64,000 nt of DNA from a virus: positions 32,001 to 96,000 of IMG/VR virus record IMGVR_UViG_3300020172_005639. One strand, 5' to 3'. Shown piece by piece: positions 15,842 to 29,273 of the stretch; positions within the stretch are counted from its first letter, which is position 1; the number at the start of each line of letters is the position of its first letter. The notes under the pieces were generated by a model that was not told the DNA's origin, ran no database searches, and saw only the letters and a program-made list of their open reading frames with translations. The position numbers were made by a program, and so were the translations under genes.

Positions 15842-17440
15842 ATGTCCAGCAAGTTTTTCCATGGCTCCAGCGTGCTTTTGGGCGACAACACCGTTCCAGG
15901 GGTGCAGCTTACTCCAGAGCTGAAGAAGTACATACCGATGGTCCTCAAGGCATGCAAGGATTGGGGGCTGGATTTCAATCCGACCGTGGTTCAACTGCTG
16001 ACCTATGACGAGATCAGCGAGATCGCAGCATACGGGGGATTCCCTGTCCGCTTTCCGCACTGGTCCTTCGGCATGGAGTACGAAGAGCTCCAGCGTGGGT
16101 ACGAGTTTGGTGCTCACAAAATATATGAAATGGTTATCAATAGCAATCCCTGCTATATCTACAACCTTTCGAGCAACACACTTGCGGACCACCTCACCGT
16201 GGTTGCGCACGCCACAGGCCACAACGACTTCTTCAAGAACAACATACACTTTTCAGCGACCGACACGAACATGCTGAACAAGATGGCCAACCACGGCACA
16301 AGGATTAGGAAGTACATAGCCAGGTGGGGCAAGGAGAGGGTTACTGAGTTCCTTGACCACGTCATGAGGCTCGAAACGCTCATCGATGGTGCAGAGGCGT
16401 GGACTGAGCGAGTTGTAAAGGAACCGAACATTCGCGATGAGCGCAAGTACAGGAAGCCTCACAGGCTGACCGTCGACAAGAGCCGCATGTACATGGAGCC
16501 ATTCCTCAACACCTCCGACTTCCGGCGGCGCGAGAACGAGAGGGTTCATGAGAGAGACCTTGCCGACGAGTTGGGAATCTTCCGGAACCCAACCAAGAAC
16601 ATACTGGGCTTTCTGCGCGACAATGCCCCGCTCAAGCCATGGCAGGCCGACATAGTCGCCATGCTTTATGAGGAGGCGATGTACTTCTATCCGCAGCGCC
16701 AGACCAAGGTTCTGAACGAGGGGTGGGCCTCCACAGTCGACAGCGTCATCATGGCTGAGAACGGGCTGATCGGCTTGGGACAGTCAAGTCACGACTGCGG
16801 CATAGTCGAGTATTCCGCCCATAAGATGGGCGTCCTTGGCGGCAAGTACTCGACCAACCCCTACAAGCTGGGCTACTATCTCTTGGCAGATATCAGGGAG
16901 AGATGGGATAAGGGCCGTTTTGGCCAGGAGTGGGAGGAGTGCACGGACCTGCACAAGAAGGAGAACTGGGACCTCCCGACCAATCTGGGCAAGGACAAGA
17001 TTTTCGAGGTCAGGAAGTACTACGACGACCTAACCTTCATCCATGAGTTCTTCACCGAGGACTTCTGCCGCAAGCAGGAGTACTTCTATTGGAAGCACTA
17101 CCCGAACGGCGAATACAGGATAGAGAGCAGGGACTTCCTGAAGATCAAGCGTTCGCTGATGAGAAAGCACATCAACGGCGGATTGCCCGACATCAAACTT
17201 GCAGAGCCGAACTATGCGGGCCGTGGCATCATGATGCTCCAGCACGAACACGATGGCAGGGAGCTGTATCTGCCCTATATCTCGGATGTGCTTGCTTCCA
17301 TCAGGGCAATCTGGAATAATGACGTGATCCTCAGCACCGTCGCCGACTCTGGTGAGGAGGTCATCTTCTACGCCAGCGGCTCGATGCCAGAGCGCGTCGA
17401 TAGCATGACGAGGAAAAAGTTCGACGCAATGATGGGCTGA
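15842..17440 (+). CDS. spoVR: SpoVR/YcgB family protein
   Basis: GFPVRFPHWSFG, KIYEMVINSNPC, AHATGHNDFFKNN, PQRQTKVLNEGWAS, NPYKLG. Confidence 0.95.
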   Translation: MSSKFFHGSSVLLGDNTVPGVQLTPELKKYIPMVLKACKDWGLDFNPTVVQLLTYDEISEIAAYGGFPVRFPHWSFGMEYEELQRGYEFGAHKIYEMVINSNPCYIYNLSSNTLADHLTVVAHATGHNDFFKNNIHFSATDTNMLNKMANHGTRIRKYIARWGKERVTEFLDHVMRLETLIDGAEAWTERVVKEPNIRDERKYRKPHRLTVDKSRMYMEPFLNTSDFRRRENERVHERDLADELGIFRNPTKNILGFLRDNAPLKPWQADIVAMLYEEAMYFYPQRQTKVLNEGWASTVDSVIMAENGLIGLGQSSHDCGIVEYSAHKMGVLGGKYSTNPYKLGYYLLADIRERWDKGRFGQEWEECTDLHKKENWDLPTNLGKDKIFEVRKYYDDLTFIHEFFTEDFCRKQEYFYWKHYPNGEYRIESRDFLKIKRSLMRKHINGGLPDIKLAEPNYAGRGIMMLQHEHDGRELYLPYISDVLASIRAIWNNDVILSTVADSGEEVIFYASGSMPERVDSMTRKKFDAMMG

Positions 17441-17707: not shown

Positions 17708-19105
17708 ATGCAGCCTAAGATAGTCGGCTTTGAGCACCTCCATCTTCACACCGATAACTCCCTCCTCGATGGTTACGGGATGGTGGAGGAGTATGCTCAT
17801 CGCGCCCCCAAGATAAACCAGAAGTTCCTTACAGTCAGTGACCACGGGATGCTGGGGGCAATCCCGAGGCAGATCAGGGCTTGCGAAAAGGCGTGCGAGT
17901 CTAAGGGCAAAGACGCCCTGAGTCCGATCTTTGCGTGCGAGCTCTATGTCAACAGCCTGCAGCCAGAATCTGACAGCCTAGATGACGTGAGGGCTTTCAT
18001 TTCCACTTTGGATGATTCGCAAAAGTCTAGGTTCAAGAGCAGCGCGCACCTTCTAGCCATCGCCTACAACGAAACGGGCTACAAGAACCTTGTCCGGCTT
18101 TCCTCCTGGGGCTGGACGAGGGGCTTCTATGGGCGGCCTCGAGTGAATCACGAGCAGCTCCTGAAGCACAAGGAGGGATTATTCTTCACGAGCTGCTGCT
18201 ACAACAGCGAGATAGGCCGTGCGTTCGACTCAGGCGGCGAGGAGCTCGGGTTCGACATGGTCGAGCGCTACATCGAGATGTTTGGCAAGGATCATTTCTT
18301 TCTTGAGATCATGCTGCTTGACTTCAAGAAGCAAAAACCCTATGACGCATTCATCATCAAGGCGCACCAGAAGTACGGACTGAAGGTCATAGTGACACAG
18401 GACGTCCACTACTGCAACAAGGAGGACAGCAAATATCAGAGGCTCATGCTGATGGTGCAGACCGGCAAGACCGTAAGGCAGATAGAGGAGGCGCTGCGCG
18501 AGAACAGCGGCTATGACGCGTTTGAGTTGCAGGACAGCAACCTTTGGATGAAGTCGGAGGAGGAGCTAAATGAGAAGTGGGTTTCCGACTACATGGAGGT
18601 CGTTCCCTATGAGGTCTTCCAGCAGGCAAAGCTCAACACCGTCGAAATCTGCAACAAGGCCAAGGGCGTTAAGCTTGATAGGAGCCTTAAGTTGCCGAAC
18701 ATACCCGACGCAGATGACATACTGCGCGACGAGGTAAAGAGCGGCTTCTTCGCTAGGCGACTTCCCAAGAACAAGGTATACCTTGACAGGCTCAAGGAGG
18801 AGCTGAGCCTGATCACGCGCAAGGGCTTCGCAAGCTACTTCCTTATCCAGAAGATGATGACAGACGAGGCTAGGCGCGTCTGCTCCGACATCATAGGTTT
18901 CGGCGATGGAACCCAGGCGGTCGGTCCCGGGCGTGGTTCTGCGGTAGGCGCGCTTGTCTGCTACTGCCTCGGTATTACTTCCGTCGATCCAGTTAGGGAA
19001 GGACTGCTCTTCAGCCGATTTCTTAGTGAGGCCAGAGGTGGTAGGTCGCTTCAGTTGAGGTTCAGGAACATGGACCCGCTGCCGCCCGATCAAGCATTCA
19101 GCTGA
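17708..19105 (+). CDS. dnaE: DNA polymerase III alpha, N-terminal part (PHP domain + first palm segment)
   Basis: HLHLHT..SLLDG, SDHG, CELY, HLLA, SCC, DVHY, GFASYFL, GPGRGSAVG, LLFSRFL; ends before PDID. Confidence 0.93.
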   Translation: MQPKIVGFEHLHLHTDNSLLDGYGMVEEYAHRAPKINQKFLTVSDHGMLGAIPRQIRACEKACESKGKDALSPIFACELYVNSLQPESDSLDDVRAFISTLDDSQKSRFKSSAHLLAIAYNETGYKNLVRLSSWGWTRGFYGRPRVNHEQLLKHKEGLFFTSCCYNSEIGRAFDSGGEELGFDMVERYIEMFGKDHFFLEIMLLDFKKQKPYDAFIIKAHQKYGLKVIVTQDVHYCNKEDSKYQRLMLMVQTGKTVRQIEEALRENSGYDAFELQDSNLWMKSEEELNEKWVSDYMEVVPYEVFQQAKLNTVEICNKAKGVKLDRSLKLPNIPDADDILRDEVKSGFFARRLPKNKVYLDRLKEELSLITRKGFASYFLIQKMMTDEARRVCSDIIGFGDGTQAVGPGRGSAVGALVCYCLGITSVDPVREGLLFSRFLSEARGGRSLQLRFRNMDPLPPDQAFS

Positions 19106-19938
19106 ACGGCTCTTGTGACTTCGCTCGGCTCCACGGTGTTTTGCCTGATTCGTAGAACCCTGAAATTCTTCGGGTCGCAGCATGGCAGCGAGGACGCCTT
19201 GTACCTCAACAACTCCGGCCTGCTGAAGACCCAAGACAGCATTTGGTGCTGCCAATAGATTCTCCTGAAAACCTTTTCCTCATCGGGGTACAGCAGTGTC
19301 ATTCTAGGGTGGCAAATCGCGCCGGCGTAATGGCTGGTGCCCGTGTCGCAACCCACGAACATATGGGACAACTCTATGATGCGGAATGTCGTGTGGATAT
19401 TGTCGCTTGCGAAGACGCCATCGGTTTCTTGCACCAGAGAGGCCTTTGCCTTGTCTATCACCATCAGGGAGTTGGGCCAGTGCCTCCTGATTTCCTTGAA
19501 TACTTCCAGGGCGTTGGCGGGCGATAGCTCCCTGTCTTCGTTGTATTCGGCCTTCAGGCATGGGCAGAATACGCAGTCGTACCTTGCTTGGCTGCCGCTG
19601 TGGCAAGAGTTGGATGATGTGTAGAAACCCTCGTCCCTTAAAAAAGGCGCCCAGACCCAAAGATTGAGCGGGTCGAACTTGGGGAGTCTGCGTTCATTAC
19701 CCCTTACGAATCTCACAATTTCGCTGGGAAAAACTGCTGCGGCCGAAACCTTTTGGCATGCGTCTCTGTAGTCTATCTCTAGGCCTTTGTGCTTCAGGTA
19801 TGCCATCATGGCCGTCGTCTGTATCTCGTCGCCTATTCTGTTCTCGGGATGCTCGTGGTATATGCCGTACTCCACGCTCTCCCAGTTACTTTTGAACTCA
19901 AACCATATTTTGTCCATCTGACTCTCTCGGGTTGTCAT
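19090..19938 (-). CDS. GT9-like (GT-B) glycosyltransferase
   Basis: RIGDEI, FVGCDTGTSHYAGA. Confidence 0.7.
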   Translation of the reverse strand: MTTRESQMDKIWFEFKSNWESVEYGIYHEHPENRIGDEIQTTAMMAYLKHKGLEIDYRDACQKVSAAAVFPSEIVRFVRGNERRLPKFDPLNLWVWAPFLRDEGFYTSSNSCHSGSQARYDCVFCPCLKAEYNEDRELSPANALEVFKEIRRHWPNSLMVIDKAKASLVQETDGVFASDNIHTTFRIIELSHMFVGCDTGTSHYAGAICHPRMTLLYPDEEKVFRRIYWQHQMLSWVFSRPELLRYKASSLPCCDPKNFRVLRIRQNTVEPSEVTRAVQLNA

Positions 19939-20746
19939 GGAGTCCCGAAAAAGGGCAGCGAGCTATTTTAGCTTCGGCATTTGGCAAACCCTGATTGTTT
20001 AGTATCCTCTTCCGCTCCATGTAAAACGTGGTTGAGTCTTTGAAGGAATTCTCCTTCGGTTTTCCGAACTTTCTTTCGTTGTAACGCATCCAGTATTCAA
20101 AAACTTCATTTGACTCTTGGGTTTCCCTGTTCGCTTCTGACACTTCCAGTTTCCAATCCGATGAGTATGTCTCTCTCTGCATTGGTATCAACTGCGCTAT
20201 CGGGTTCGATTGGTCTCTTCTAAATGACACAGGCTCGTTGATCCTGTCGAAGACAAGGTTCATCCAGATGTCATATTGCATCCAGTCGGTTTCAAGAACT
20301 CCGTCCATGACATGGAAGGGCTGGGACTGGTAATTTATCGGGCTTTTGATGTGCAGGCACCATCCGGGTGGCGTCTTGAAGATCAGGCCGGTCCACAGCT
20401 GCAGAACGTTCGGCTCAACGCTGCCGAGAGACATCTTTGTCCTTCCCGTTCCGAACGGGCACCATTTGTCGGGGTTGACGCCGTCCTCGGGCCTCACCAG
20501 CCTTCGCACCAAGTGGGCGTCTTCGTCGGAGTTGTAGTACTCGTCTAGGAACCTGACCCCGAACTTTTCGCCCGTCCACACGACGTCAAAGTCGGATGGA
20601 GGGTAAAGCCACCAGCCAAGTGCGTTCACCGTGCTGAAGGGGTGGCACCACTTCACGCCCTCCTTATGGGCCGTACCGCAAAGGGTTTTCTCGGCCTTTT
20701 GTATGCGGCAGGCCTGTGGGTGCAGTTGGTAGGCCTGCAGCGACAT
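19898..20746 (-). CDS. DUF6065-like protein (trimeric dUTPase-like beta fold)
   Basis: C.PF..VNALGW, FKTPPGW.L....P.N, GVLETDW, PIAQLIP; first ATG outside the tmRNA body is at 20746. Confidence 0.7.
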   Translation of the reverse strand: MSLQAYQLHPQACRIQKAEKTLCGTAHKEGVKWCHPFSTVNALGWWLYPPSDFDVVWTGEKFGVRFLDEYYNSDEDAHLVRRLVRPEDGVNPDKWCPFGTGRTKMSLGSVEPNVLQLWTGLIFKTPPGWCLHIKSPINYQSQPFHVMDGVLETDWMQYDIWMNLVFDRINEPVSFRRDQSNPIAQLIPMQRETYSSDWKLEVSEANRETQESNEVFEYWMRYNERKFGKPKENSFKDSTTFYMERKRILNNQGLPNAEAKIARCPFSGLHDNPRESDGQNMV

Positions 20747-21094
20747 GGAGTTGAGGGGAGTCGAACCCCTGTCTTCAGCGAGAGACATCCGGACCTCTAC
20801 ATGCTTTTTGCGTCGTTCGTTTTCTGTCTTCGGACCACGGCGCACAGAGGTCTCTAGACAACACCAACATAAACTATCGCCACGCAAGTTGGCAGCGCGA
20901 CGTTTGCGGGATTTACTTCGGGCCTTTGGGCGCTACCCGCTCGCCCCCTCGGCCCGTGGCAGACCTAAATTAGGCAGCCAGGGAAAGAACAGTTTCGTCG
21001 TTTGTTGCGACAGCCGAATTTTTAAGAGGCCATTCGGCCAACCTCTGCATGCCATCCGGGCGCCGCACCGTTGAATCGATACCGGAACAACCCC
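20746..21094 (-). ncRNA. ssrA: tmRNA
   Basis: 5' GGGGTTG pairs with 3' CAACTCC-A (G3:U70 Ala determinant); T-arm AGGGGTTCGACTCCCCT; pk1 GAGG/CCTC + GCCGAA/TTCGGC; tag ORF ...(ATN)DETVLSLAA-TAA at 21008-20970. Confidence 0.93.
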
Positions 21095-21126
21095 GTTTTG
21101 TCGGAAGTAATTTTTCTCCCGACGAC

Positions 21127-21154
21127 ATTATATATGTAACACGGGCCGAATCAA
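21127..21154 (-). promoter_or_regulatory. Sigma70-like promoter for tmRNA (TTGATT-16-TATAAT), overlapping a + strand TATATA box
   Basis: Motifs read directly on the - strand. Confidence 0.45.
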
Positions 21155-21170
21155 TCCAAATGGAGAAATC

Positions 21171-22088
21171 ATGGGATACATTTCATTTCACGAGTATGTG
21201 GACAAGAATAGAAAGTCCCCCAAGAAGGGCGACAAATCGCCAAAAGCAAAAACTGCAGTTGTCGCCGACTACGACGGTCCCATGAAGGATTCGCCTGAGC
21301 TTGCGAAAATGCCAGCCGATGCTGGCGGAGTCGGCCAGTCCGGCAAAGTCACCCCCTACAAAGGCGGGAAGGACGCCGCTGACCCCAACAAGGGCAAGCT
21401 GGCGGACGGTCTGGCAAAGAAGCCCGGCAAACAGGGAATGGGAGAGCTTGGAAAGCCAGAGAAGGTTCTTGGCAACTATCCCTCCATCAAGACATCTGAG
21501 TGGCTTGACACCCACAAGGGCCTCTCCCTCTCGGAGTTCGCCAAAAAGGTGAGGGAGGATAGGCTGTCTGGCATCAAGAACCCCAGTCGCGCCTACGAGT
21601 CCATCAAGGAAACTGTCGATGTCTGCAAGAAAAACGGCTCTTATGTGATGGACGTGGTTCTTGAGATGAGGCGCTCCGGACTGGCAGGCACCTTTGTTTC
21701 CGTTCTTGCCCAACAGCCAGAGTGCATAAACGTCATCGCCCACATGATGGAGAATGACGAGAGCTTCGCCCGAAAGCTCAGCATGGCTTTGGAAGAAATG
21801 GTCGGTCCTCCCGTGGGCGGCGACGAAGAGATGGAAGACGATCGCGAGGATATGGGCGGCGAGCCGGAGGAGGGCGACGAGCCTGTCGATGGCGAGGCCG
21901 GAGAGTCTGATGATGAGGACATGGAGGACGCTGAGGCCGAAGGAGAGGACGAGCTCTCCGATGACGGCGAGGGCGACGAGGTTGAGGATGCAGAGATGGA
22001 GGTTGAGGTTAAACCCTTAGAGAAGCCCATGAGCAAGGCCAAGGACAACCTCCAGAAGATGCTCATGAAGATGATGGGTCACCGATAG
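21171..22088 (+). CDS. Probable prohead core/internal protein with acidic C-terminal tract
   Basis: MGYISFHEY start, K/G/P-rich middle, long D/E tract; upstream TATATA and GGAG. Confidence 0.65.
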   Translation: MGYISFHEYVDKNRKSPKKGDKSPKAKTAVVADYDGPMKDSPELAKMPADAGGVGQSGKVTPYKGGKDAADPNKGKLADGLAKKPGKQGMGELGKPEKVLGNYPSIKTSEWLDTHKGLSLSEFAKKVREDRLSGIKNPSRAYESIKETVDVCKKNGSYVMDVVLEMRRSGLAGTFVSVLAQQPECINVIAHMMENDESFARKLSMALEEMVGPPVGGDEEMEDDREDMGGEPEEGDEPVDGEAGESDDEDMEDAEAEGEDELSDDGEGDEVEDAEMEVEVKPLEKPMSKAKDNLQKMLMKMMGHR

Positions 22089-22115
22089 TCGGTTTTGCCA
22101 AAAAGTTTGATATGC

Positions 22116-22140
22116 AAGACCCCCTCTGACAGGGGGTCTT
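22116..22140 (+). terminator. Hairpin, probable terminator
   Basis: AAGACCCCCT-CTGAC-AGGGGGTCTT perfect 10-bp stem. Confidence 0.6.
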
Positions 22141-22181
22141 CTATTTATAATTGCTCGTCTATTTCTAAAAAAGGGCGAGCA

Positions 22182-23408
22182 ATGAAGATATCAGTTTTTA
22201 CTCCAACGCACAATCCGAAATATCTGAATAGGCTTTACGAGTCACTTAAGGCTCAAACATCACCTGACTGGGAGTGGGTGGTGGTTCCCAACGGGACCTG
22301 TGTTGTGAGTCTGCCGAGTGATCCACGCATCAAGGTGGTGGCCACGAATTCCAGCACCAATATCGGTTACCTTAAGAAGTTTGCCTGCTCACAAGCCACA
22401 GGTGAGATCTACATGGAGGTGGATCACGATGACGAGCTTTTCCCCGATGCCATAGCTGAGTGCGCCAAGGCCTTTTCAGACCCGACCGTGGATTTCGCCT
22501 ACTCCAACTGCTGCGACGTCACCGAGGGCTACAAGCCAAGGGTGTTCAGCGAGACTTTTGGGTGGCTCAACCGCCCCTGCAAATTCAAAGAACACGAGCT
22601 CATGGAGATGGTCTGCTTCGAGCCCGACCCTGCAAGCATCAGCAAGATATGGTTTGCCCCCAACCACTTCAGGGCATGGAGGGCGTCCTTCTACAACCGC
22701 ATCGGCGGCCATGACGAGTCGATGGACATTCTTGACGACCAGGACATTCTTTGCAGAACTTATATCCATGGCAAGATGCGCCATATCGACAAACCCCTTT
22801 ATGTCTACCACATCCATGAGGGTAACACCTGCTACGGCGACAAGAACGCCAAAATTCAGGACATGACTCTAGAGCTTCACGACAAGTACATCTACCAGCT
22901 CGTTGAGAAGTGGTGCGACCTAAAGGGACTCAAGAAGATTGACCTGTGCGGGGGCCACAGCAAGCCGCCCGGCTATGAGAGCATCGACCTCTTGAACGGC
23001 GACATCGTCCACGACCTCAACAAGCCTTGGCCCTTCAAGGATGGCGAGGTGGGTTTGTTCCGTGCGCACGACGCCCTGGAGCACCTATCGGACACAATCC
23101 ACGTGATGAAGGAGGCGCACAGGTGCCTTGCGCCCAAGGGTTGGTTCCTGACCTTCACCCCCTCAACCGACGGTCGAGGAGCCTTCCAAGACCCAACGCA
23201 CATCAAGTTTTTCAACAGCAACAGCTTCTGGTACTACACTAAGAAGGATCAGGCGCAGTACATCGGAACGCCGGTGAGGTTCCAACTAAATAGAATCAAG
23301 AATTACTACCCAAATGACTGGTGCAAGATGCACGACATCGTGTATGTTAAAGCCGATCTATACAAGTTTGACGAAACCGGGAGAACCCCGGGACTTATTG
23401 AGATCTGA
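22182..23408 (+). CDS. GT2 glycosyltransferase + SAM-methyltransferase-like fusion
   Basis: ISVFTPTHN, SLKAQT, EVDHDD; C-terminal IDLCGG, HDALEH, GAFQDPTH. Confidence 0.85.
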   Translation: MKISVFTPTHNPKYLNRLYESLKAQTSPDWEWVVVPNGTCVVSLPSDPRIKVVATNSSTNIGYLKKFACSQATGEIYMEVDHDDELFPDAIAECAKAFSDPTVDFAYSNCCDVTEGYKPRVFSETFGWLNRPCKFKEHELMEMVCFEPDPASISKIWFAPNHFRAWRASFYNRIGGHDESMDILDDQDILCRTYIHGKMRHIDKPLYVYHIHEGNTCYGDKNAKIQDMTLELHDKYIYQLVEKWCDLKGLKKIDLCGGHSKPPGYESIDLLNGDIVHDLNKPWPFKDGEVGLFRAHDALEHLSDTIHVMKEAHRCLAPKGWFLTFTPSTDGRGAFQDPTHIKFFNSNSFWYYTKKDQAQYIGTPVRFQLNRIKNYYPNDWCKMHDIVYVKADLYKFDETGRTPGLIEI

Positions 23409-23502
23409 GCTGTGCAAGCAACTGAGACGGACAGGCCTTGTAATCGCTGGGCTTGTCCGCAATTGTTTCAATTGCCTTCCAGAAAGGGGCTAGGACGAAA
23501 AC

Positions 23503-24471
23503 ATGCCATCGCCTGACAGTCGAATCTCAAGAATAAAAAGCATCATTAGGGGAAGCGGATTGTCTGAATATCAGGTTTTCCCAGTTTCCGATCAAGACAG
23601 GGCATCCGACAAGCTCACAGACTGCGTCCAGTGGACGTCTTCGGACAACAAGAATTTCATACCCACCTCTAGGACTGTTGAGAGACTGCCCCCTGGAACA
23701 TACGATATCGGCATGAACCAGGCCAATGGCCTGTTCTTCGAGAAGGTCCCGGTCTTGGAAAACGATCTGGTGGTCTTCCCGGAGAGCAACACCGAGAAGA
23801 TCGTCGGGGAGATTCGCCGCTTCTGGGATCGTGAGGAAATATACCGACGCCACAGGCTCGCCTTCAAGCGGGGTATACTTTTGTACGGCCCTCCGGGGTC
23901 TGGCAAGAGTTGCACGATACAGTTGGTCATGAACGACGTGGTGCAGAGGAATGGCATCGTCATTAACTTTTGCGAGGCCGACCTGTTTGTCGCAGGCGCA
24001 AGAAAGTTAAGAGAGATTCAGCCCGACACCCCCGTGGTCGTGCTGATGGAGGACGTAGACTCCATATTGCAAGACAACGAGGAGAGCTCCGTTCTCAATG
24101 TGCTGGACGGCGTGAACCAGATCGACAAGGTTGTGTTCCTCGCCACAACCAACTACCCCGAAAGGCTTGGCGAAAGAGTCATCAATAGGCCCAGCAGATT
24201 CGACAAGCGCTTTAAGATCGGATATCCAGACGAGAGGACGAGGCGGATATATTTTGAGCGAATCATCGGCGACAAGCTGATAGGCGATCTGAAAATCGAC
24301 TTGGACTTGTGGGTCAGGAAGACCGACGAGTTTAGCATGGCCCACCTTAAGGAGCTTTTTGTGGCGGTTGCAGTCCTTGGGGACGACTTCGACGAGGCAG
24401 TTGAAACTTTGATCTCAATGAAGGAAGATGGCATAAGCTCCAGAGATGATGCAAAGAAGATGGGCTTCTAG
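23503..24471 (+). CDS. AAA+ ATPase
   Basis: RGILLYGPPGSGKS, MEDVD, LNVLDG, TTNYPE, RPSRFD. Confidence 0.9.
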   Translation: MPSPDSRISRIKSIIRGSGLSEYQVFPVSDQDRASDKLTDCVQWTSSDNKNFIPTSRTVERLPPGTYDIGMNQANGLFFEKVPVLENDLVVFPESNTEKIVGEIRRFWDREEIYRRHRLAFKRGILLYGPPGSGKSCTIQLVMNDVVQRNGIVINFCEADLFVAGARKLREIQPDTPVVVLMEDVDSILQDNEESSVLNVLDGVNQIDKVVFLATTNYPERLGERVINRPSRFDKRFKIGYPDERTRRIYFERIIGDKLIGDLKIDLDLWVRKTDEFSMAHLKELFVAVAVLGDDFDEAVETLISMKEDGISSRDDAKKMGF

Positions 24472-24480
24472 GGGAGAAAA

Positions 24481-26034
24481 ATGGACATCGCCGTATATGG
24501 CTGGCATGACTCCTCTGTCTGCGTCAAGGACGGCGGGAAGTATTTTGTTTATGAGTTCGAGCGTTTCGTCAATAGGCGTTACGCAGTCATGACGCAGCAG
24601 TACCCTTCGGCCTCCCAACCGCAAGGCGAGGTCGTGGACTTTCTAAGCTACATCAAACACCGACACCGTGTCCCACACATTGACTTAGTTCTCTGCGACC
24701 AGATATTCGATTGCGACCATCACACTTTCAAGTCGGTCTTCAGCGTGGGGCAGTACCGCAAGTTTGGCCACCACTTAGCCCATGCCTATGGAGCCTACGC
24801 GCAGAGCCCATTTGAGAACTGCTTCGTAATATCCTATGACGGTTCAGGCGAGAATGAGGACGGCAGCAACAGCAGCTTCACGGTTTGGAGTGCAAGCCCT
24901 GATGGCATGGCTCTACTGAACGATTTTCAGCCATACTTCTCGCACAGCTTGGGCAACTGCTACCTAGCCCTAACCGTGCCGCTGGCATCAATAAAGAAGC
25001 CCGTAAAGGACCCAGACAACTACTATTTCTATGGCGGCAGCGCAGGCAAGCTCATGGGTCTGGCCGCATTCGGCACACCGGTAGAGGACTGGAAACCCCA
25101 CTTCCGTGCTTTTTTTGACGGAGGAAGAGTTTGCGATGAAAAGAGTTTGAGCGATAGCATAGGCATCGATATCGGGCGCTTCAACCACTTGCACGGGCAG
25201 ACTGAATTCGACTTTGCTGCCACTATTCAGTGGGCTTTTGAAGACAAGTTCTTTAGGATTTTTGACACCTTGGGCATTCCTCAAGGATCAAGCATTTGCA
25301 TGACTGGCGGATGCGCCCTGAACATAAATGTCAACCAGAGGCTGGCTGACATGGGATACAAACTGTTTGTTCCGCCAAATCCATCTGATTGTGGGCTGAC
25401 GCTAGGGATGCTAAGCGCGCATCATGGCGACAGGAATATCGACGTCACCTATTCAGGCTTCGATATTCTCGACCACGAAGCTCATGGGCTCCGCAGCGAG
25501 CCGATGGACATTGCCGGACTCGCTTCCAGTCTGTTTTTCCGTCGCAAGATAGTGGGCTTGATACAGGGCTCCTCTGAATGTGGGCCTAGAGCTTTGTGCA
25601 ACCGCAGTATAATTTGCTATCCAGATATTCCTATGCTCAAGGAGAGAATCAACTCTGACATCAAGTTCAGAGAGTGGTTCAGGCCTTTTGGAACCGTTGT
25701 GAGGGCAGAGGATATAGACAGGTTCTTCGTGAACGGCAGAGAGTCGAGATTCATGAGCTTATGTCCGACGCTTCGCAAAGAGTACCAGTTTCCCAGCATA
25801 ACCCACGTGGACGGCACCTGTAGGGTCCAAACCGTTTCGGCATCGCAAAATCCTCTGGCGCACTCTCTGCTTTCGGAACTGGAGAACCTCGGGGCTTTGC
25901 CGATTCTCCTCAACACCAGCTTCAACACGAAGGGCAAGCCAATTCTCACTAGGCTCTCTGATGCTGCTGCAACGCTTCACGAAACAAAGCTTGAAGGTTT
26001 CTATTACGAGGGCAGGTTTTATGAGAGGGCATAG
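24481..26034 (+). CDS. O-carbamoyltransferase (NodU/CmcH family)
   Basis: HDSS, HHLAHA, DGSGE, GKLMGLA, GGCALN, ECGPRAL.NRS, KFREWFRPF, HVDGTCRVQTV, NTSFN. Confidence 0.92.
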   Translation: MDIAVYGWHDSSVCVKDGGKYFVYEFERFVNRRYAVMTQQYPSASQPQGEVVDFLSYIKHRHRVPHIDLVLCDQIFDCDHHTFKSVFSVGQYRKFGHHLAHAYGAYAQSPFENCFVISYDGSGENEDGSNSSFTVWSASPDGMALLNDFQPYFSHSLGNCYLALTVPLASIKKPVKDPDNYYFYGGSAGKLMGLAAFGTPVEDWKPHFRAFFDGGRVCDEKSLSDSIGIDIGRFNHLHGQTEFDFAATIQWAFEDKFFRIFDTLGIPQGSSICMTGGCALNINVNQRLADMGYKLFVPPNPSDCGLTLGMLSAHHGDRNIDVTYSGFDILDHEAHGLRSEPMDIAGLASSLFFRRKIVGLIQGSSECGPRALCNRSIICYPDIPMLKERINSDIKFREWFRPFGTVVRAEDIDRFFVNGRESRFMSLCPTLRKEYQFPSITHVDGTCRVQTVSASQNPLAHSLLSELENLGALPILLNTSFNTKGKPILTRLSDAAATLHETKLEGFYYEGRFYERA

Positions 26035-26521
26035 CGTGTTGAAGATTTTGCTTGATGAGGAGTATATCCTCGTTCTGGATACGGACAGTTTAATTATCGA
26101 CTTTTATCGTGAGATATGCTCGTTTTGCACGGGTCATGATGCGGACTCATGTCGGAGCATGGTTGAGTCCGATCGTTTCCATGATGATTTTCAGGATGAG
26201 AACCCTTTTTCGGTGAATATCAAATACAAGGATGACGGGGAGGGCGGTGAAACCCCTTGCTCTGTCTGGCTAAACAAACGATATGGCTGCGACGAGGATG
26301 GCAACTTCGGTTTATTGGATGAGAACAACTTTCAGTCCTACGGCTTTCCTGCGCCCATGAGCGTCGGTATATTCTTCCTGACTGAGCCCACGCAGACCCA
26401 GATAAACTTGATTCGGTCAAGGGCCGAGGCGTTTCTGGCAGAGCGCAAGCCCTCCCCGAAGCTTGAGTCTCTTCGCCTTATCACCCATACCAAGTACGGC
26501 GAAGAGCGCGTCCTGAGCTAG
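26021..26521 (+). CDS. Hypothetical protein
   Basis: ORF filling the gap; start uncertain. Confidence 0.55.
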   Translation: MRGHSVLKILLDEEYILVLDTDSLIIDFYREICSFCTGHDADSCRSMVESDRFHDDFQDENPFSVNIKYKDDGEGGETPCSVWLNKRYGCDEDGNFGLLDENNFQSYGFPAPMSVGIFFLTEPTQTQINLIRSRAEAFLAERKPSPKLESLRLITHTKYGEERVLS

Positions 26522-26528
26522 GAGAGCT

Positions 26529-29273
26529 ATGAGCAAGGAATCGTTCGTAGCCATTTGCGAGGATGCGTTCAAGTCGAAGGGCTTGCAGAAAAACCCTAGG
26601 TTTGTCAAGCGCTTCCGCTGGGAGATCGATGAAATCCTCGGTAAGGAGGATCACCAGTACTTTCTTGACCTTGTTGAGAGCAAGACGCGCTACCCCATGA
26701 ACCAGAACAACCTTCTGGTCTGCTGGCTGCTGGGCATAGTTCCCGACTTCGACATAGAGAGAGAGCCTGCGAGCGTCTTCACGGGCGACTTGCCCGATAT
26801 CGATATTGACTACCTCCCTGAAATCAGGGAGTACCTCAAGAACAGGTGGTCGATCGAAAAATTTGGCTCAGAGCACGTCTGCAATATCGGCAGCTATACT
26901 ACGTTCGGAATCAAGTCGGCGCTGATCGACATGGCCAGGGTCCACGAGGCTCCCCGTGAGGAGGTCATGGCCATCACCAAGAACCTAGAGGACAAGGACG
27001 AGGACGGGAAACTGTTGACCTGGGACTCTGCAGTCCGCATCCACCCCGAGCTCAAGCAGTATGCTGAAAAGCATCCAGAGGTCGCTGAGGCTGCTAAGAA
27101 CTTGCTGAACAGGAACCGTGCGATGGGTGTCCATGCCGGTGGCCTTATCATATCGAGCATTCCGCTACACGACCTAGTTCCGTTGGTGAAAAGAAAGGAG
27201 GCACCGCAGGCTTCCGCTTGGGTTGAAGGTCTGCACGGGCAAGAGCTCCAGCCCGTCGGGCTGGTGAAGTTCGACCTTTTGGTGATCAGTAACCTACTCC
27301 AGATTGCCAGATGCTGCGACCTCGTCAAGAAGCGCCACGGATTGCAGGGGATTTGCGCAAGGCCAGAGGAGTCCGACTGGACAGACGTGCACGCTTGGCG
27401 AGACAACCCCAAGTCCCTCGCAATGGCGAACGAGGGCGACCTCAAGTGCATCTTCCAGTTCGACAGCGAAGGGATGCGCGCCCTCGTGAAGTCTGGCGGC
27501 GTGAACAGGTTCGAGGACATGGTGGCATACTCTGCTCTCTTTAGGCCAGGTTGCTTGGCCAGTGGCATGACGAAGCTTTACATTGAGCGCAAGCGGGGCA
27601 GGGACTCCTTTGAACTTCACCCGATCATGCAGCCCATACTCGAGAAGACTTACGGCATCATGGTCTACCAAGAACAGATCATGCAGATCCTCCATGTGGT
27701 CGGGGAAATTCCCCTCAAGGACTGCGAGGCAGTAAGGAAGGCAATCAGCAAGAAGAAGATCGAGCAGTTCATCAAGTACAAGGAGCAGTTCGTAATCAAT
27801 GGCCAGCGCAAGCTCTCGTCCAGCGAGAAAGAACTAGAGGCGCTGTGGAGCCAGATCGAGTCATGGGCCGGCTACGGCTTCAACGCGTCTCATGCCGTCG
27901 CATACACCTATATCTCTATGTGGCTCCTTTATCTGAAGTCCCACTACCCCTCGGAGTTCTACACGGCGATATTGAGCTGCGAAACGCTTAGTGACAAGAT
28001 CAAGGACGTGAAGATGGAGGCTCGCATCCACGGCGTCGAGATGCACAGGCTAGACGTGAACAAATCCTCGCCCAACTTCAGCCTTGTCAACGAGGTCATC
28101 TACTATGGCTTCCAGAACGTGAAGGGGATCGGAGAGGGCCCGGCGCAGAGGCTCGCAGCAAACGCGCCATACAAGTCCTTCGAGGACTTCGTTGTCAGGT
28201 TCGGAACGGACGCCGGAGTGCTCAAGCCCATAGTCGCGCTGCGCTGCTTCAGGGACTGCGACCCTGTCACTTTGTGGAAGTTTGCAGATCACTACAAGGA
28301 CAGACTTAAGAAGATAGAGGACAGGCGCAAAAGGTTTGAGTCTTCGCTCTTGGGATATGAGGAGGAGTTGCAGTCGCTGCTTCCTGGATTTCCCAAGAAG
28401 TTGTCTGATTTTAATGGCGAAAACCCGTTCGATCACAGGATTTTCAAGGAAAAGTTCGACATTGACCAGGAGATCCTGACCGTTAAGACAGTTCCCTGTG
28501 ATCTGGGGGAGGGAGAGGCTGTCGTTGAGAACGAGTTCGTGGACGTGCCTGACGGTGATGCCACGATAGAAAGGATCGTTAAGAAGCATTACAAAAAGAT
28601 AGAGGTCAAAAAGACTTTTAACAGGTGGAAGGAGCTCAAGAAGCTGTGGGTCAAGCGCCAGAAATCCATAGACAGGCAGAACGCGCTGGCAAATGACGAG
28701 ATGCCCAAGCTGGTTCACTTCAACCCAGAGGACCATCCAATCGACGGAGAGTTGCTGCGGGAGCTCCGCAACCCCGTAGCGTGCGAGGAGAAGTTCTACG
28801 GGTTTGCTTGGATTCATGAGCTGGAGCGAAGTCCAGACTATACGGGCAACAAAACTTTCTCCGACTGCAAAAACGTTGCCGAAGGCGCAGCCTACCCCGT
28901 GGAGATGAAGGTCAAGAAGACGGTGGAAGCCAAGAGCCGCAAGGGTCATTCCTACCGTCAGGTCATAGCAGAGGACGCCACCGGGGCAGAGGCGAAGATC
29001 AATGTTTGGTCTGATGACTGGTCTCGCTGGCAGTCAGAATTAAAGGTGGCTAACTTACTTAGAGTAAGGCTGCAACCGCCCTCTGGCGGCTTCAATACCT
29101 ACACTCTGGAGTCCAACCAGCAGGGCAAGTTCCGTGGAAGGCTCCGGTACAGGGACAAGGACGATGATCCGAGAATCTTCGTCATGAAGCCGGGCGTCAA
29201 GGAAGACGAAAAGTTCATGACTGACGAGGAAGTCCTTGCGCAGTTCGAGAAATGCAACGTGGAAAACCCATGA
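26529..29273 (+). CDS. dnaE: DNA polymerase III alpha, C-terminal part (catalytic palm, thumb, fingers, HhH, OB)
   Basis: DLPDIDID, GVHAGG, LVKFDLL, IFQF, ALFRPG, TYGIMVYQEQ, YGFNASHA.AY, KGIG; own GGAG SD. Confidence 0.93.
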   Translation: MSKESFVAICEDAFKSKGLQKNPRFVKRFRWEIDEILGKEDHQYFLDLVESKTRYPMNQNNLLVCWLLGIVPDFDIEREPASVFTGDLPDIDIDYLPEIREYLKNRWSIEKFGSEHVCNIGSYTTFGIKSALIDMARVHEAPREEVMAITKNLEDKDEDGKLLTWDSAVRIHPELKQYAEKHPEVAEAAKNLLNRNRAMGVHAGGLIISSIPLHDLVPLVKRKEAPQASAWVEGLHGQELQPVGLVKFDLLVISNLLQIARCCDLVKKRHGLQGICARPEESDWTDVHAWRDNPKSLAMANEGDLKCIFQFDSEGMRALVKSGGVNRFEDMVAYSALFRPGCLASGMTKLYIERKRGRDSFELHPIMQPILEKTYGIMVYQEQIMQILHVVGEIPLKDCEAVRKAISKKKIEQFIKYKEQFVINGQRKLSSSEKELEALWSQIESWAGYGFNASHAVAYTYISMWLLYLKSHYPSEFYTAILSCETLSDKIKDVKMEARIHGVEMHRLDVNKSSPNFSLVNEVIYYGFQNVKGIGEGPAQRLAANAPYKSFEDFVVRFGTDAGVLKPIVALRCFRDCDPVTLWKFADHYKDRLKKIEDRRKRFESSLLGYEEELQSLLPGFPKKLSDFNGENPFDHRIFKEKFDIDQEILTVKTVPCDLGEGEAVVENEFVDVPDGDATIERIVKKHYKKIEVKKTFNRWKELKKLWVKRQKSIDRQNALANDEMPKLVHFNPEDHPIDGELLRELRNPVACEEKFYGFAWIHELERSPDYTGNKTFSDCKNVAEGAAYPVEMKVKKTVEAKSRKGHSYRQVIAEDATGAEAKINVWSDDWSRWQSELKVANLLRVRLQPPSGGFNTYTLESNQQGKFRGRLRYRDKDDDPRIFVMKPGVKEDEKFMTDEEVLAQFEKCNVENP

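What the first reader, a model, noticed from the sequence alone, without database searches (positions are those of the whole stretch)
17708..29273. Intein-less two-gene DnaE with a duplicated palm segment and complementary motif loss
Seen: Pol III alpha is encoded by two genes 7.4 kb apart. The N gene (465 aa) has the PHP domain plus GPGRGS and LLFSRFL..AR, then stops before the catalytic aspartates. The C gene (914 aa) has PDIDID and KFD. It starts with an ~85-aa decayed second copy of the N gene's last region (KN..YLDRLKEEL..I..KG...YFL / LVCYCLGI versus KN..FVKRF.WEI..I..K....YFL / LVCWLLGI), in which GRGS and the RF..R arginines are gone. No intein block A start or HN-C junction is visible. 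Known: the GS motif and these arginines bind the dNTP triphosphate, and the cyanobacterial split DnaE is rejoined by a split intein. Inference: neither half is a complete polymerase, so the active site may be assembled in trans as a heterodimer after duplication and subfunctionalisation.
Basis: partly seen in the sequence, partly recalled or inferred. Interest (0 to 1): 0.85.

Follow-up and report, generated by a model that had tools for sequence, protein, structure and literature searches.

The report
Two-gene phage DnaE, no intein
A clade of huge freshwater phages encodes its Pol III-type DNA polymerase as two separate genes cut through the active site, apparently working as a two-subunit enzyme, and a closely related phage still has the single-gene form.

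Summary
The N gene (17708-19105, 465 aa) carries the PHP domain and the first third of the palm, including the GPGRGS and LLFSRFL..AR motifs. The C gene (26529-29273, 914 aa) carries the rest: DxDxD, K-F-D, fingers and HhH. The cut lies at Pfam PF07733 position 98|100. No intein or intron was found.

The first 86 residues of C are a diverged second copy of N residues about 343-424 (hhalign E 9.6e-6). This copy is not decaying: dN/dS is 0.07, and it has its own invariant N-x-N-N-L motif.

The split is present in 8 IMG/VR loci, 15 protein clusters and independent metagenome assemblies. The gap holds 2.9 to 13 kb of unrelated cargo. The split genes form one clade (100/98) whose sister, LR756511, has a fused 1179-aa gene.

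The complex model scores ipSAE 0.87, against 0.00 for the best control. It places N's GS strand against C's DxD strand, and puts both the C head and the N tail in the interface.

Best reading: an obligate non-covalent two-subunit polymerase that arose by overlap duplication and complementary loss.

Iyer et al. 2021 already predicted a split minimal Pol III alpha in other jumbo phages, so I class this as a new variant of a known kind. The scan's other notes on this stretch are unchecked first-reader notes.

The parts
17708..19105 (+). dnaE-N gene, 465 aa: PHP domain plus the NTP-binding part of the palm, then a short tail
17735..18313 (+). PHP domain (aa 10-202)
   Evidence: Pfam PF02811, E 1.6e-32. 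D21, H46, E78, H114, C164, D232 and H234 are invariant in 16 of 16 rows.
18722..19036 (+). Palm segment, functional copy (aa 339-443), with GPGRGS (18923-18940) and LLFSRFLSEAR
   Evidence: PF07733 positions 3-98. 59 of 99 residues are identical to the fused outgroup. It is the best conserved part of N, with mean pairwise identity 0.74.
19037..19102 (+). N tail (aa 444-465). G444, G445, S447, L450 and F452 are invariant in 4 of 4 rows. SLQLRF sits where fused genes have the DxDxD strand, so it may be a degenerate copy of that strand (inference).
   Evidence: pLDDT is below 50 when N is folded alone. Residues 436-463 lie in the modelled interface.
19106..26528 (.). 7.4 kb of cargo between the halves: 19090-19938(-) unknown; 19898-20887(-) DUF6065; tmRNA 20743-21094(-); 21171-22088(+) unknown; 22095-23408(+) GT2 + methyltransferase; 23503-24471(+) AAA ATPase; 24481-26034(+) carbamoyltransferase; 25961-26521(+) phrog_23621
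   Evidence: The content differs between relatives.
26529..29273 (+). dnaE-C gene, 914 aa. An AGGAG sequence lies about 5 nt before the ATG, and the upstream gene ends 8 nt before it.
26529..26786 (+). C head (aa 1-86): diverged second copy of N aa ~343-424. It lacks the GS loop and the LLFSRF..R helix, and has the invariant residues N58, N60, N61 and L62.
   Evidence: dN/dS is 0.068. Helices 3-16, 23-38, 42-50 and 63-67 have pLDDT 82-95.
26796..26810 (+). Catalytic DxDxD strand (D90, D92, D94)
   Evidence: Invariant in 25 of 25 rows. Aligns to the PDIDTD stretch of Taq.
27267..27275 (+). K247-F248-D249 (third acidic residue)
   Evidence: K247 and D249 are invariant in 25 of 25 rows.
27303..27800 (+). 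Finger domain (aa 259-424)
   Evidence: PF17657, E 3.7e-38
28032..28250 (+). HhH domain (aa 502-574)
   Evidence: PF14579, E 2.2e-11

Best explanation
This is a C-family (DnaE-type) DNA polymerase that underwent gene fission in the ancestor of a clade of huge freshwater phages. It now most likely works as an obligate non-covalent heterodimer.

- The N subunit supplies the PHP domain and the dNTP-triphosphate-binding half of the nucleotidyltransferase fold (GS loop and arginines).
- The C subunit supplies the metal-binding aspartates, thumb, fingers, HhH and the C-terminal domains.

The fission left an overlap. Both genes once held the same ~80-110 residues of palm. N kept the working copy. C lost the motifs from its copy but kept it as a helical docking module, and the N tail may be the matching relic of the DxD strand. 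I infer that head and tail act as the straps that hold the two chains together.

Shown: anatomy, homology of the overlap, one origin from a fused ancestor, purifying selection, and absence of a recognisable intein or intron.
Inferred: binding, composite active site, docking role of head and tail, and the order of events.
For: - The cut is clean, at PF07733 position 98|100, equivalent to Taq 458|460.
- The same cut occurs in 5 of 5 related virus records searched. In four of them both halves lie on the record, N upstream of C on the same strand, with gaps of 2.9, 5, 6.5 and 13 kb. The window has 7.4 kb. G002 holds only the C half on a contig that starts 4 kb upstream.
- 15 protein clusters carry the head. 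Fourteen are 909-1147 aa and one, P0017, is 552 aa. None has a PHP hit.
- In the tree of 24 rows, the 7 split rows form one clade (100/98), sister to fused LR756511 (100/100). The 15 other rows are fused and 1 is intron-type.
- N and C each have LR756511 as their best phage hit (55.5% and 47.3%), with the next hits near 33%.
- The GS/Arg motifs are invariant in N. D90, D92, D94, K247 and D249 are invariant in C.
- Window versus L014: dN/dS is 0.007 for N, 0.023 for its palm segment and 0.068 for the head.
- Independent assemblies bridge the N stop (runs X2, X4 and X7, three studies) and the C start (X2). Table 5 lists no contig joined across the gap.
- Complex model: ipSAE 0.87 (runs 0.85-0.88) against 0.00 for the best of 3 controls. 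In the tool's calibration this mark was reached by 58 of 80 solved complexes and 2 of 110 mismatched pairs. The runs share at least 92% of contacts and the partner pLDDT is at least 88.
- In that model C:95 touches N:405/406. C:454-461 touches N:407, 413, 426, 431 and 433. Head residues 31-62 and tail residues 436-463 are in the interface.
- The N tail is disordered when N is folded alone (pLDDT below 50).
Against: - There is no experiment.
- The complex pass is expected for halves of a protein whose whole structure is solved, so it may come from the model's memory. It shows likeness, not binding (the tool's own caveat).
- I had no coordinates, so where the head sits is known only from contact lists.
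- In the C-alone model the head was not superposed on the canonical palm segment in 15 of 16 DnaE/PolC rows, which is uninformative either way.
- The head is less conserved (0.42 mean identity) than the catalytic core (0.65-0.71).
- Only 5 of its 13 invariant residues fall in the modelled interface.
- The resemblance of the N tail to the DxD strand rests on 6 residues and cannot be tested statistically.
- All virus records are fragments (8-40% complete), so a second, whole dnaE elsewhere in the genome is not excluded.
- A family A polymerase domain is present in 3 of 5 records, so the split enzyme need not be the only polymerase.
Confidence: 0.75

Rival explanations
1. The two products do not form one polymerase. 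N is a free-standing PHP exonuclease or phosphoesterase with a vestigial palm stump. C works alone or with another partner, binding dNTP in a different way, or has a non-polymerase role.
For: - PHP ligand positions are conserved in N.
- The two genes sit in different transcription contexts. N is followed by convergent genes, and C is the last gene of a sugar or modification cassette.
- The C head has its own invariant Asn-rich motif where the GS loop was.
Against: - The palm stump is the most conserved part of N (0.74 against 0.68 for PHP).
- The stump keeps every dNTP-binding motif residue invariant, which a vestige would not.
- C lacks the GS loop and both arginines in 7 of 7 heads.
- N and C stay syntenic in all 6 records where both are seen.
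- The complex model places the N motifs at the C active site.
Confidence: 0.12
2. The halves are rejoined after transcription or translation, by an unrecognised split intein, a trans-splicing intron or another ligation, so that a single chain is restored.
For: - Split-intein 'fractured' dnaE genes exist in phage-like metagenome loci (PMC2677866, passages read).
- A relative (L039) carries a 1.1-kb LAGLIDADG-bearing, intron-like insertion at this very codon boundary.
- One clade member has a true intein elsewhere in C.
Against: - No intein family hits the N tail or the C head at E <= 10, while Pfam does find the intein of P0018.
- There is no Cys/Ser/Thr-led intein start after FLSEAR and no His-Asn plus nucleophile before the DxD strand.
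- The N tail varies in length at its end.
- No Rfam intron was found at gathering score or at E <= 1.
- The gap holds genes on both strands and a tmRNA.
- Joining N to C would duplicate about 80 residues of palm.
Confidence: 0.05
3. The split is a dead or dying gene, or an assembly artefact.
For: The records are metagenome assemblies and fragments.
Against: - The same arrangement occurs in 8 IMG/VR loci from different samples.
- Contigs of runs from three other studies bridge the junctions.
- Both frames are open in all of them.
- dN/dS is 0.007-0.07.
- The catalytic residues are invariant.
Confidence: 0.02

Closest known systems
Split 'minimal' DNA polymerase III alpha of group 2.2 jumbo phages (Iyer, Anantharaman, Krishnan, Burroughs, Aravind 2021, PMC7824862; I read passages of sections 3.4.1 and 3.5 and the Figure 3 legend)
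   Same: The Pol-beta-type catalytic module is divided into an N-terminal NTP-binding protein and a C-terminal Mg- and template-binding protein, encoded by separate genes. No intein is reported, and the authors predict that the two reconstitute one enzyme.
   Different: - That version is described as minimal, without the other Pol III domains. It accompanies a family B polymerase and is read as ancient.
- Here the enzyme is full size (PHP, fingers, HhH, long C-terminus).
- No family B polymerase was found in 0 of 5 partial records.
- A fused sister gene shows that this fission is recent and derived.
- An overlapping duplicated segment is kept in both halves.
- I did not compare sequences with their proteins, because no accession was fetched.
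Intein-less split phage enzymes: gp43A/43B family B polymerase of Aeromonas phages 25/44RR, split NrdA of Aeh1, T4 topoisomerase gp39/gp60 (PMC2988022, passages read); PhiKZ DNAP-N + DNAP-C (PMC13648687, abstract read)
   Same: A contiguous replication enzyme is encoded in two genes. The products reassemble non-covalently and are active. The cut lies in a functionally critical region, and mobile DNA is implicated at the site.
   Different: - Those are family B polymerases or other enzymes.
- Their gap is a homing endonuclease gene or a short untranslated spacer, not 3-13 kb of changing cargo.
- The passages I read describe no duplicated overlap.
Split-intein DnaE of cyanobacteria and 'fractured' dnaE loci (PMC2677866, passages read; PMC3919608, passages read)
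   Same: dnaE is encoded in two genes.
   Different: Those are rejoined by protein trans-splicing at other insertion points. Here no intein parts were found.
Intron-type interruption at the same site (locus L039, a 218,948-bp virus contig)
   Same: The interruption falls between the P-D and I-D-V-D codons of the same catalytic strand.
   Different: It is 1.1 kb long with one LAGLIDADG ORF. The exon ends read through to a normal sequence with no overlap. The upstream exon ends in T and the insert ends in G, as group I introns do (a rule I recall). Rfam did not call it.
Gene fission by duplication and complementary degeneration (the Drosophila 'monkey king' case; recalled, not fetched)
   Same: A partial duplicate and the parent each lose complementary parts, which leaves two genes that together cover the ancestral protein.
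   Different: That is a eukaryotic case with separate domains. Here the cut runs through one catalytic fold, and the shared segment is retained.

Membership tests
C-family DNA polymerase, DnaE type (Pol III alpha) | PHP domain at the N-terminus | tested here: met
   PF02811, E 1.6e-32 in N
C-family DNA polymerase, DnaE type (Pol III alpha) | Pol-beta-like palm with a GS motif, two Asp on one strand and a third Asp | tested here: met
   All are present and invariant, but they lie on two chains: G406-S411 in N, and D90, D92 and D249 in C.
C-family DNA polymerase, DnaE type (Pol III alpha) | Finger and HhH domains; overall fold | tested here: met
   PF17657 and PF14579. C model residues 86-530 match E. 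coli alpha residues 397-837: Z 25.8, rmsd 4.1, 425 aligned.
C-family DNA polymerase, DnaE type (Pol III alpha) | One polypeptide | tested here: not met
   Two ORFs lie 7,423 bp apart. The same holds in the relatives.
Split-intein (trans-splicing) DnaE | Intein N-part at the end of the first gene and C-part at the start of the second | tested here: not met
   No intein or Hint family at E <= 10. The positive control P0018 was detected.
Intron-interrupted dnaE (as in L039) | A self-splicing RNA between exons that read through without overlap | tested here: not met
   No Rfam intron. The gap holds genes on both strands. The halves overlap by about 80 residues.
Split minimal Pol III alpha of group 2.2 jumbo phages (PMC7824862) | Cut between the NTP-binding and Mg-binding subdomains | tested here: met
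Split minimal Pol III alpha of group 2.2 jumbo phages (PMC7824862) | No other Pol III domains; accompanies a family B polymerase | tested here: not met
   PHP, finger and HhH are present. PF00136 was found in 0 of 5 partial records, though absence from fragments is weak evidence.
Split minimal Pol III alpha of group 2.2 jumbo phages (PMC7824862) | Sequence kinship with their proteins | not tested
   Their sequences were not fetched.

The most novel reading that the evidence does not exclude
The retained overlap is the mechanism of the fission. A partial duplication gave both genes the same palm segment, so no intermediate was ever inactive. One copy then kept catalysis. The other was re-used, together with the N tail, as a strap that makes the two chains an obligate pair with a composite active site. 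The gap so created became a stable landing pad for 3-13 kb of changing cargo, including a tmRNA, inside an essential replication gene. With the fused sister enzyme in LR756511, this would be a natural before-and-after pair for studying how a polymerase active site can be divided between subunits.
Probability: 0.45. Interest if true: 0.7.

Novelty: new variant of a known kind. Interest (0 to 1): 0.6.

Why it matters
C-family replicases are treated as single-chain catalytic subunits. Surveys of bacterial DnaE report only intein splits and frameshift fragments (PMC3919608, passages read).

Here the cut lies between the dNTP-binding motifs and the metal-binding aspartates of a full-size enzyme. 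It is evolutionarily stable, and a close fused relative is available for comparison. That makes three questions directly testable:
- whether a Pol-beta-type active site can be built from two chains;
- what holds the chains together;
- whether separating the PHP/NTP half from the catalytic half allows separate regulation.

It is also a clear prokaryotic-virus example of gene fission through duplication and complementary loss.

Tried and rejected
- Plain BLASTP of N against C found only a 9-residue match (E 0.96). Profile methods were needed.
- Pfam does not call the head at E <= 10.
- blastn-short between the N end and the C head found only chance 7-8-mers.
- Rfam found no intron in the window or in L039. 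The only hit in the gap is a tmRNA.
- The promoter scan was at chance level (7 found, 7.1 expected). Terminator-like sites numbered 20 against 12.7 expected. I did not use either result.
- I tried to infer the order of events from synteny. In fused L001, homologs of g21171 and the AAA ATPase lie upstream of dnaE, whereas in the window they lie inside the gap. But no ortholog of the AAA gene was found in G001, G003 or G004, and the gaps of L010 and L049 hold unrelated genes. The choice between 'N copy inserted upstream' and 'cargo inserted into dnaE' therefore stays open.
- In the C-alone model the head is not superposed on the canonical palm segment in 15 of 16 DnaE/PolC rows. This is uninformative.
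- Foldseek output gave no aligned ranges.
- No listed run that holds the stretch is on record as RNA, so there are no expression or splicing data.
- Parts of the stretch lack cover in some runs. No conclusion is drawn from that.
- PF00136 was found in 0 of 5 records and PF00476 in 3 of 5. The records are fragments.
- Paper searches found no description of a full-size intein-less split DnaE with an overlap. Supplements were not seen, and those of PMC7824862 may list related proteins.
- Rows left out of the tree: L018 and L026 (near copies of L015 and L025); L020, L021 and L038 (my motif pattern did not find the DxD strand); L008, L011, L014, L016, L023, L031, L034, L035 and L037 (partial or near-duplicate loci).
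- ORF continuity was tested in 21 loci: 20 had a single ORF, and L039 did not.

Full report
WHAT IS THERE

The window is part of a 120.5-kb IMG/VR virus record that CheckV estimates at 28% complete, which implies a phage of roughly 400 kb. Two + strand ORFs, 17708-19105 (465 aa, 'N') and 26529-29273 (914 aa, 'C'), lie 7,423 bp apart.

Pfam reads the two ORFs as follows:
- N is PHP (aa 10-202, E 1.6e-32) plus DNA_pol3_alpha profile positions 3-98 of 260.
- C is profile positions 100-259, the finger domain and HHH_6.

PHROG 405 (DNA polymerase, 1190 positions) is covered at positions 43-439 by N and at 436-1054 by C. Against solved structures, N stops at Taq alpha 458 / E. coli 396, and C aa 87 starts at Taq 460 / E. 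coli 398. The cut therefore falls between the LLFxRFL..R helix and the DxD strand, inside the nucleotidyltransferase core.
- N holds G406-P-G-R-G-S411 and R437/R443.
- C holds D90, D92, D94 and K247-F-D249.
- By the offsets, D90 and D92 fall on E. coli 401 and 403, which I recall as the catalytic aspartates.
- That the GS motif and the arginines bind the triphosphate is established knowledge from the Taq and PolC ternary complexes. I recall this and did not re-read it.

THE OVERLAP

The first 86 residues of C precede the DxD strand and align with the fused homolog's residues about 340-440. They lack the GS loop and the LLFSRF..R helix. The evidence for homology is:
- BLASTP alone is not significant.
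- A profile of 12 fused palm segments scores the 7 heads of the clade at 8.7-19.1 bits, against 8.9 for the best of 1,400 shuffles. Six of 7 heads exceed that value.
- hhalign of heads against N ends gives E 9.6e-6 over 62 columns, with the gap over the GS loop.
- tblastn alignments to fused Streptomyces and Rhodococcus phage DnaEs start at C aa 9-13.
- PHROG 11165 matches both N 354-443 and C 15-542 with the same profile start.

The two copies have diverged very unevenly. The N copy keeps 59 of 99 residues identical to the fused outgroup. The head keeps 11 of 35 in the only local alignment found.

After FLSEAR, N continues with a tail. Its first ten residues are conserved (G444, G445, S447, L450 and F452 are invariant in 4 of 4 rows). 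Its SLQLRF keeps the hydrophobic positions of the D-I-D-I-D-F/Y strand. This suggests that the duplicated block ran through that strand, but the stretch is too short to test.

IT IS NOT A RELIC

Between the window and the near-identical locus L014, the head has 15 synonymous and 5 non-synonymous differences (dN/dS 0.068). All of N gives 0.007.

Across five genomes, mean pairwise identity by region is:
- head: 0.42
- C-terminal third of C: 0.45
- fingers and palm: 0.65-0.71
- N palm segment: 0.74

The head has derived invariant residues (R28, E32, E35, I36, N58, N60, N61, L62, L67, L68, D75). AlphaFold2 folds it as four helices with pLDDT 82-95.

NOT AN ARTEFACT, AND NOT REJOINED IN ANY WAY I COULD DETECT

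Eight IMG/VR loci carry a C gene with the head (L004-L007, L009-L011, L014).

In six records both halves are seen, N upstream of C on the same strand. The gaps are:
- 2.9 kb in L010/L011
- 5 kb in L006
- 6.5 kb in L005
- 7.4 kb in L014 and the window
- 13 kb in G001/L049

The database search with the head alone returned 15 clusters. Fourteen are 909-1147 aa and one, P0017, is 552 aa. None has a PHP hit.

Contigs from runs of three other studies bridge the N stop. One bridges the C start with at most 3 differing letters. Table 5 lists no contig joined across the gap.

No intein family matches the N tail or the C head at E <= 10. Pfam does find a real intein at aa 468-673 of clade member P0018, so the search can detect inteins in this clade. 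Rfam finds no intron. The gap holds genes on both strands and a tmRNA.

ORIGIN

In a tree of the C part (24 rows), the 7 split rows form one clade (100/98). Its sister is the fused 1179-aa gene of LR756511, a 595-kb uncultured phage (100/100). The other 15 rows are fused, and L039 is interrupted by an intron-like element.

N and C each have LR756511 as their closest phage relative. Both therefore descend from one fused gene, and the fission happened once.

The gap content is unrelated between lineages:
- L010: an asparaginase-like gene plus an unknown ORF.
- L049: a GDP-mannose dehydratase, a 2198-aa Stig1-repeat protein and a GT2.
- Crown group: GT2-methyltransferase, with or without the AAA ATPase and the carbamoyltransferase.

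The gap is thus a cargo hot spot, while the two halves stay put. Whether a partial N copy was first placed upstream, or DNA was inserted with a staggered duplication, could not be settled.

The site itself attracts mobile DNA. L039 has a 1.1-kb insert with a LAGLIDADG ORF exactly between the P-D and I-D-V-D codons.

HOW IT LIKELY WORKS

C lacks the GS loop and both arginines in 7 of 7 heads, and N lacks the aspartates. Each keeps its own set invariant. The simplest reading is a composite active site.

The complex model (N 1-465 with C 1-530, both given as alignments) scored ipSAE 0.87 (runs 0.85-0.88), against 0.00 for the best of three controls. The runs share at least 92% of contacts and the partner pLDDT is at least 88. 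In the tool's calibration this mark was reached by 58 of 80 solved complexes and 2 of 110 mismatched pairs. Its contacts are:
- C:95, just after the DxDxD strand, touches N:405/406, the strand that leads into the GS loop.
- The C helix 97-112 packs on the N helix around 384-388.
- C fingers 452-462 touch N:407, 413, 426 and 431-433.
- Head residues 31-62 and tail residues 436-463 are in the interface.

So it is N's copy, not the head, that takes the canonical place, and the head and the tail sit at the seam. The tail is disordered when N is folded alone.

This pass may come from the model's memory of whole DnaE structures, so it shows likeness rather than binding.

WHAT IS KNOWN

- Iyer et al. 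2021 predicted a split minimal Pol III alpha in group 2.2 jumbo phages, with NTP-binding and Mg-binding halves on separate, distant genes (PMC7824862, passages read).
- Intein-less split phage enzymes that reassemble are documented for gp43A/B, NrdA and topoisomerase (PMC2988022, passages read), and for the PhiKZ family B polymerase (PMC13648687, abstract read).
- Split-intein dnaE is known in cyanobacteria and in 'fractured' loci (PMC2677866, passages read).
- A survey of bacterial DnaE mentions only intein splits and frameshift fragments (PMC3919608, passages read).
- My five searches found no report of a full-size DnaE split without an intein, none of a retained overlap, and none of a fused sister.

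VERDICT

- Class: new variant of a known kind.
- Interest: 0.6.
- Confidence in the heterodimer reading: 0.75.

Noticed in passing
window 20743-21094 (-): A phage-encoded tmRNA lies inside the gap between the two dnaE halves. Rfam RF00023 scores 107.2 bits over the full model. ARAGORN gives the tag peptide DETVLSLAA. Metagenome contig depth spikes here, and many variant letters come from other organisms' tmRNA.
   Followed up: partly
L039 8905-10027: A 218,948-bp virus contig has dnaE interrupted between the P-D and I-D-V-D codons by about 1.1 kb that holds a LAGLIDADG ORF (PF14528, E 5.5e-11). The exon ends read through cleanly, the upstream exon ends in T and the insert ends in G. It looks like a group I intron, but Rfam did not call it.
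   Followed up: partly
protein P0018 (aa 468-673), a clade member's C gene: A head-bearing C protein of 1147 aa carries a true intein (PF14890, E 2.6e-8) between the finger and HhH domains.
   Followed up: partly
window 15842-17440 (+), and upstream: A SpoVR-like gene (PF04293, E 5.5e-103) lies directly upstream of dnaE-N. It is conserved next to dnaE in relatives and in the fused outgroup.
   Followed up: no
G000:C1:10849-11670 (outside the window); also G001 and G003: A short (440-478 aa) family A DNA polymerase domain ORF is present in 3 of 5 related records. No family B polymerase was found in 0 of 5.
   Followed up: no
L049 3789-10385 (-): The 13-kb gap of one relative holds a 2198-aa protein with 15 Stig1-like repeats (PF04885, E 7e-89), next to a GDP-mannose dehydratase and a GT2.
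   Followed up: no
window 20481-22059: In run X4 one contig joins 20481 to 22059 with two other letters between (table 5c). This may be a strain that lacks the tmRNA and the following ORF. The main joint table does not list it.
   Followed up: no
window 22095-26034 (+): The cargo cassette holds a GT2 glycosyltransferase fused to a methyltransferase, an AAA ATPase and a Nol-type carbamoyltransferase. The AAA ATPase and the carbamoyltransferase are present in only some relatives.
   Followed up: partly
window 27525-27925: Contig depth rises about tenfold in X2 and two- to fourfold in the other three runs, with many loose ends, over the most conserved DnaE finger motifs. This is probably other organisms' dnaE laid on the stretch.
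   Followed up: no
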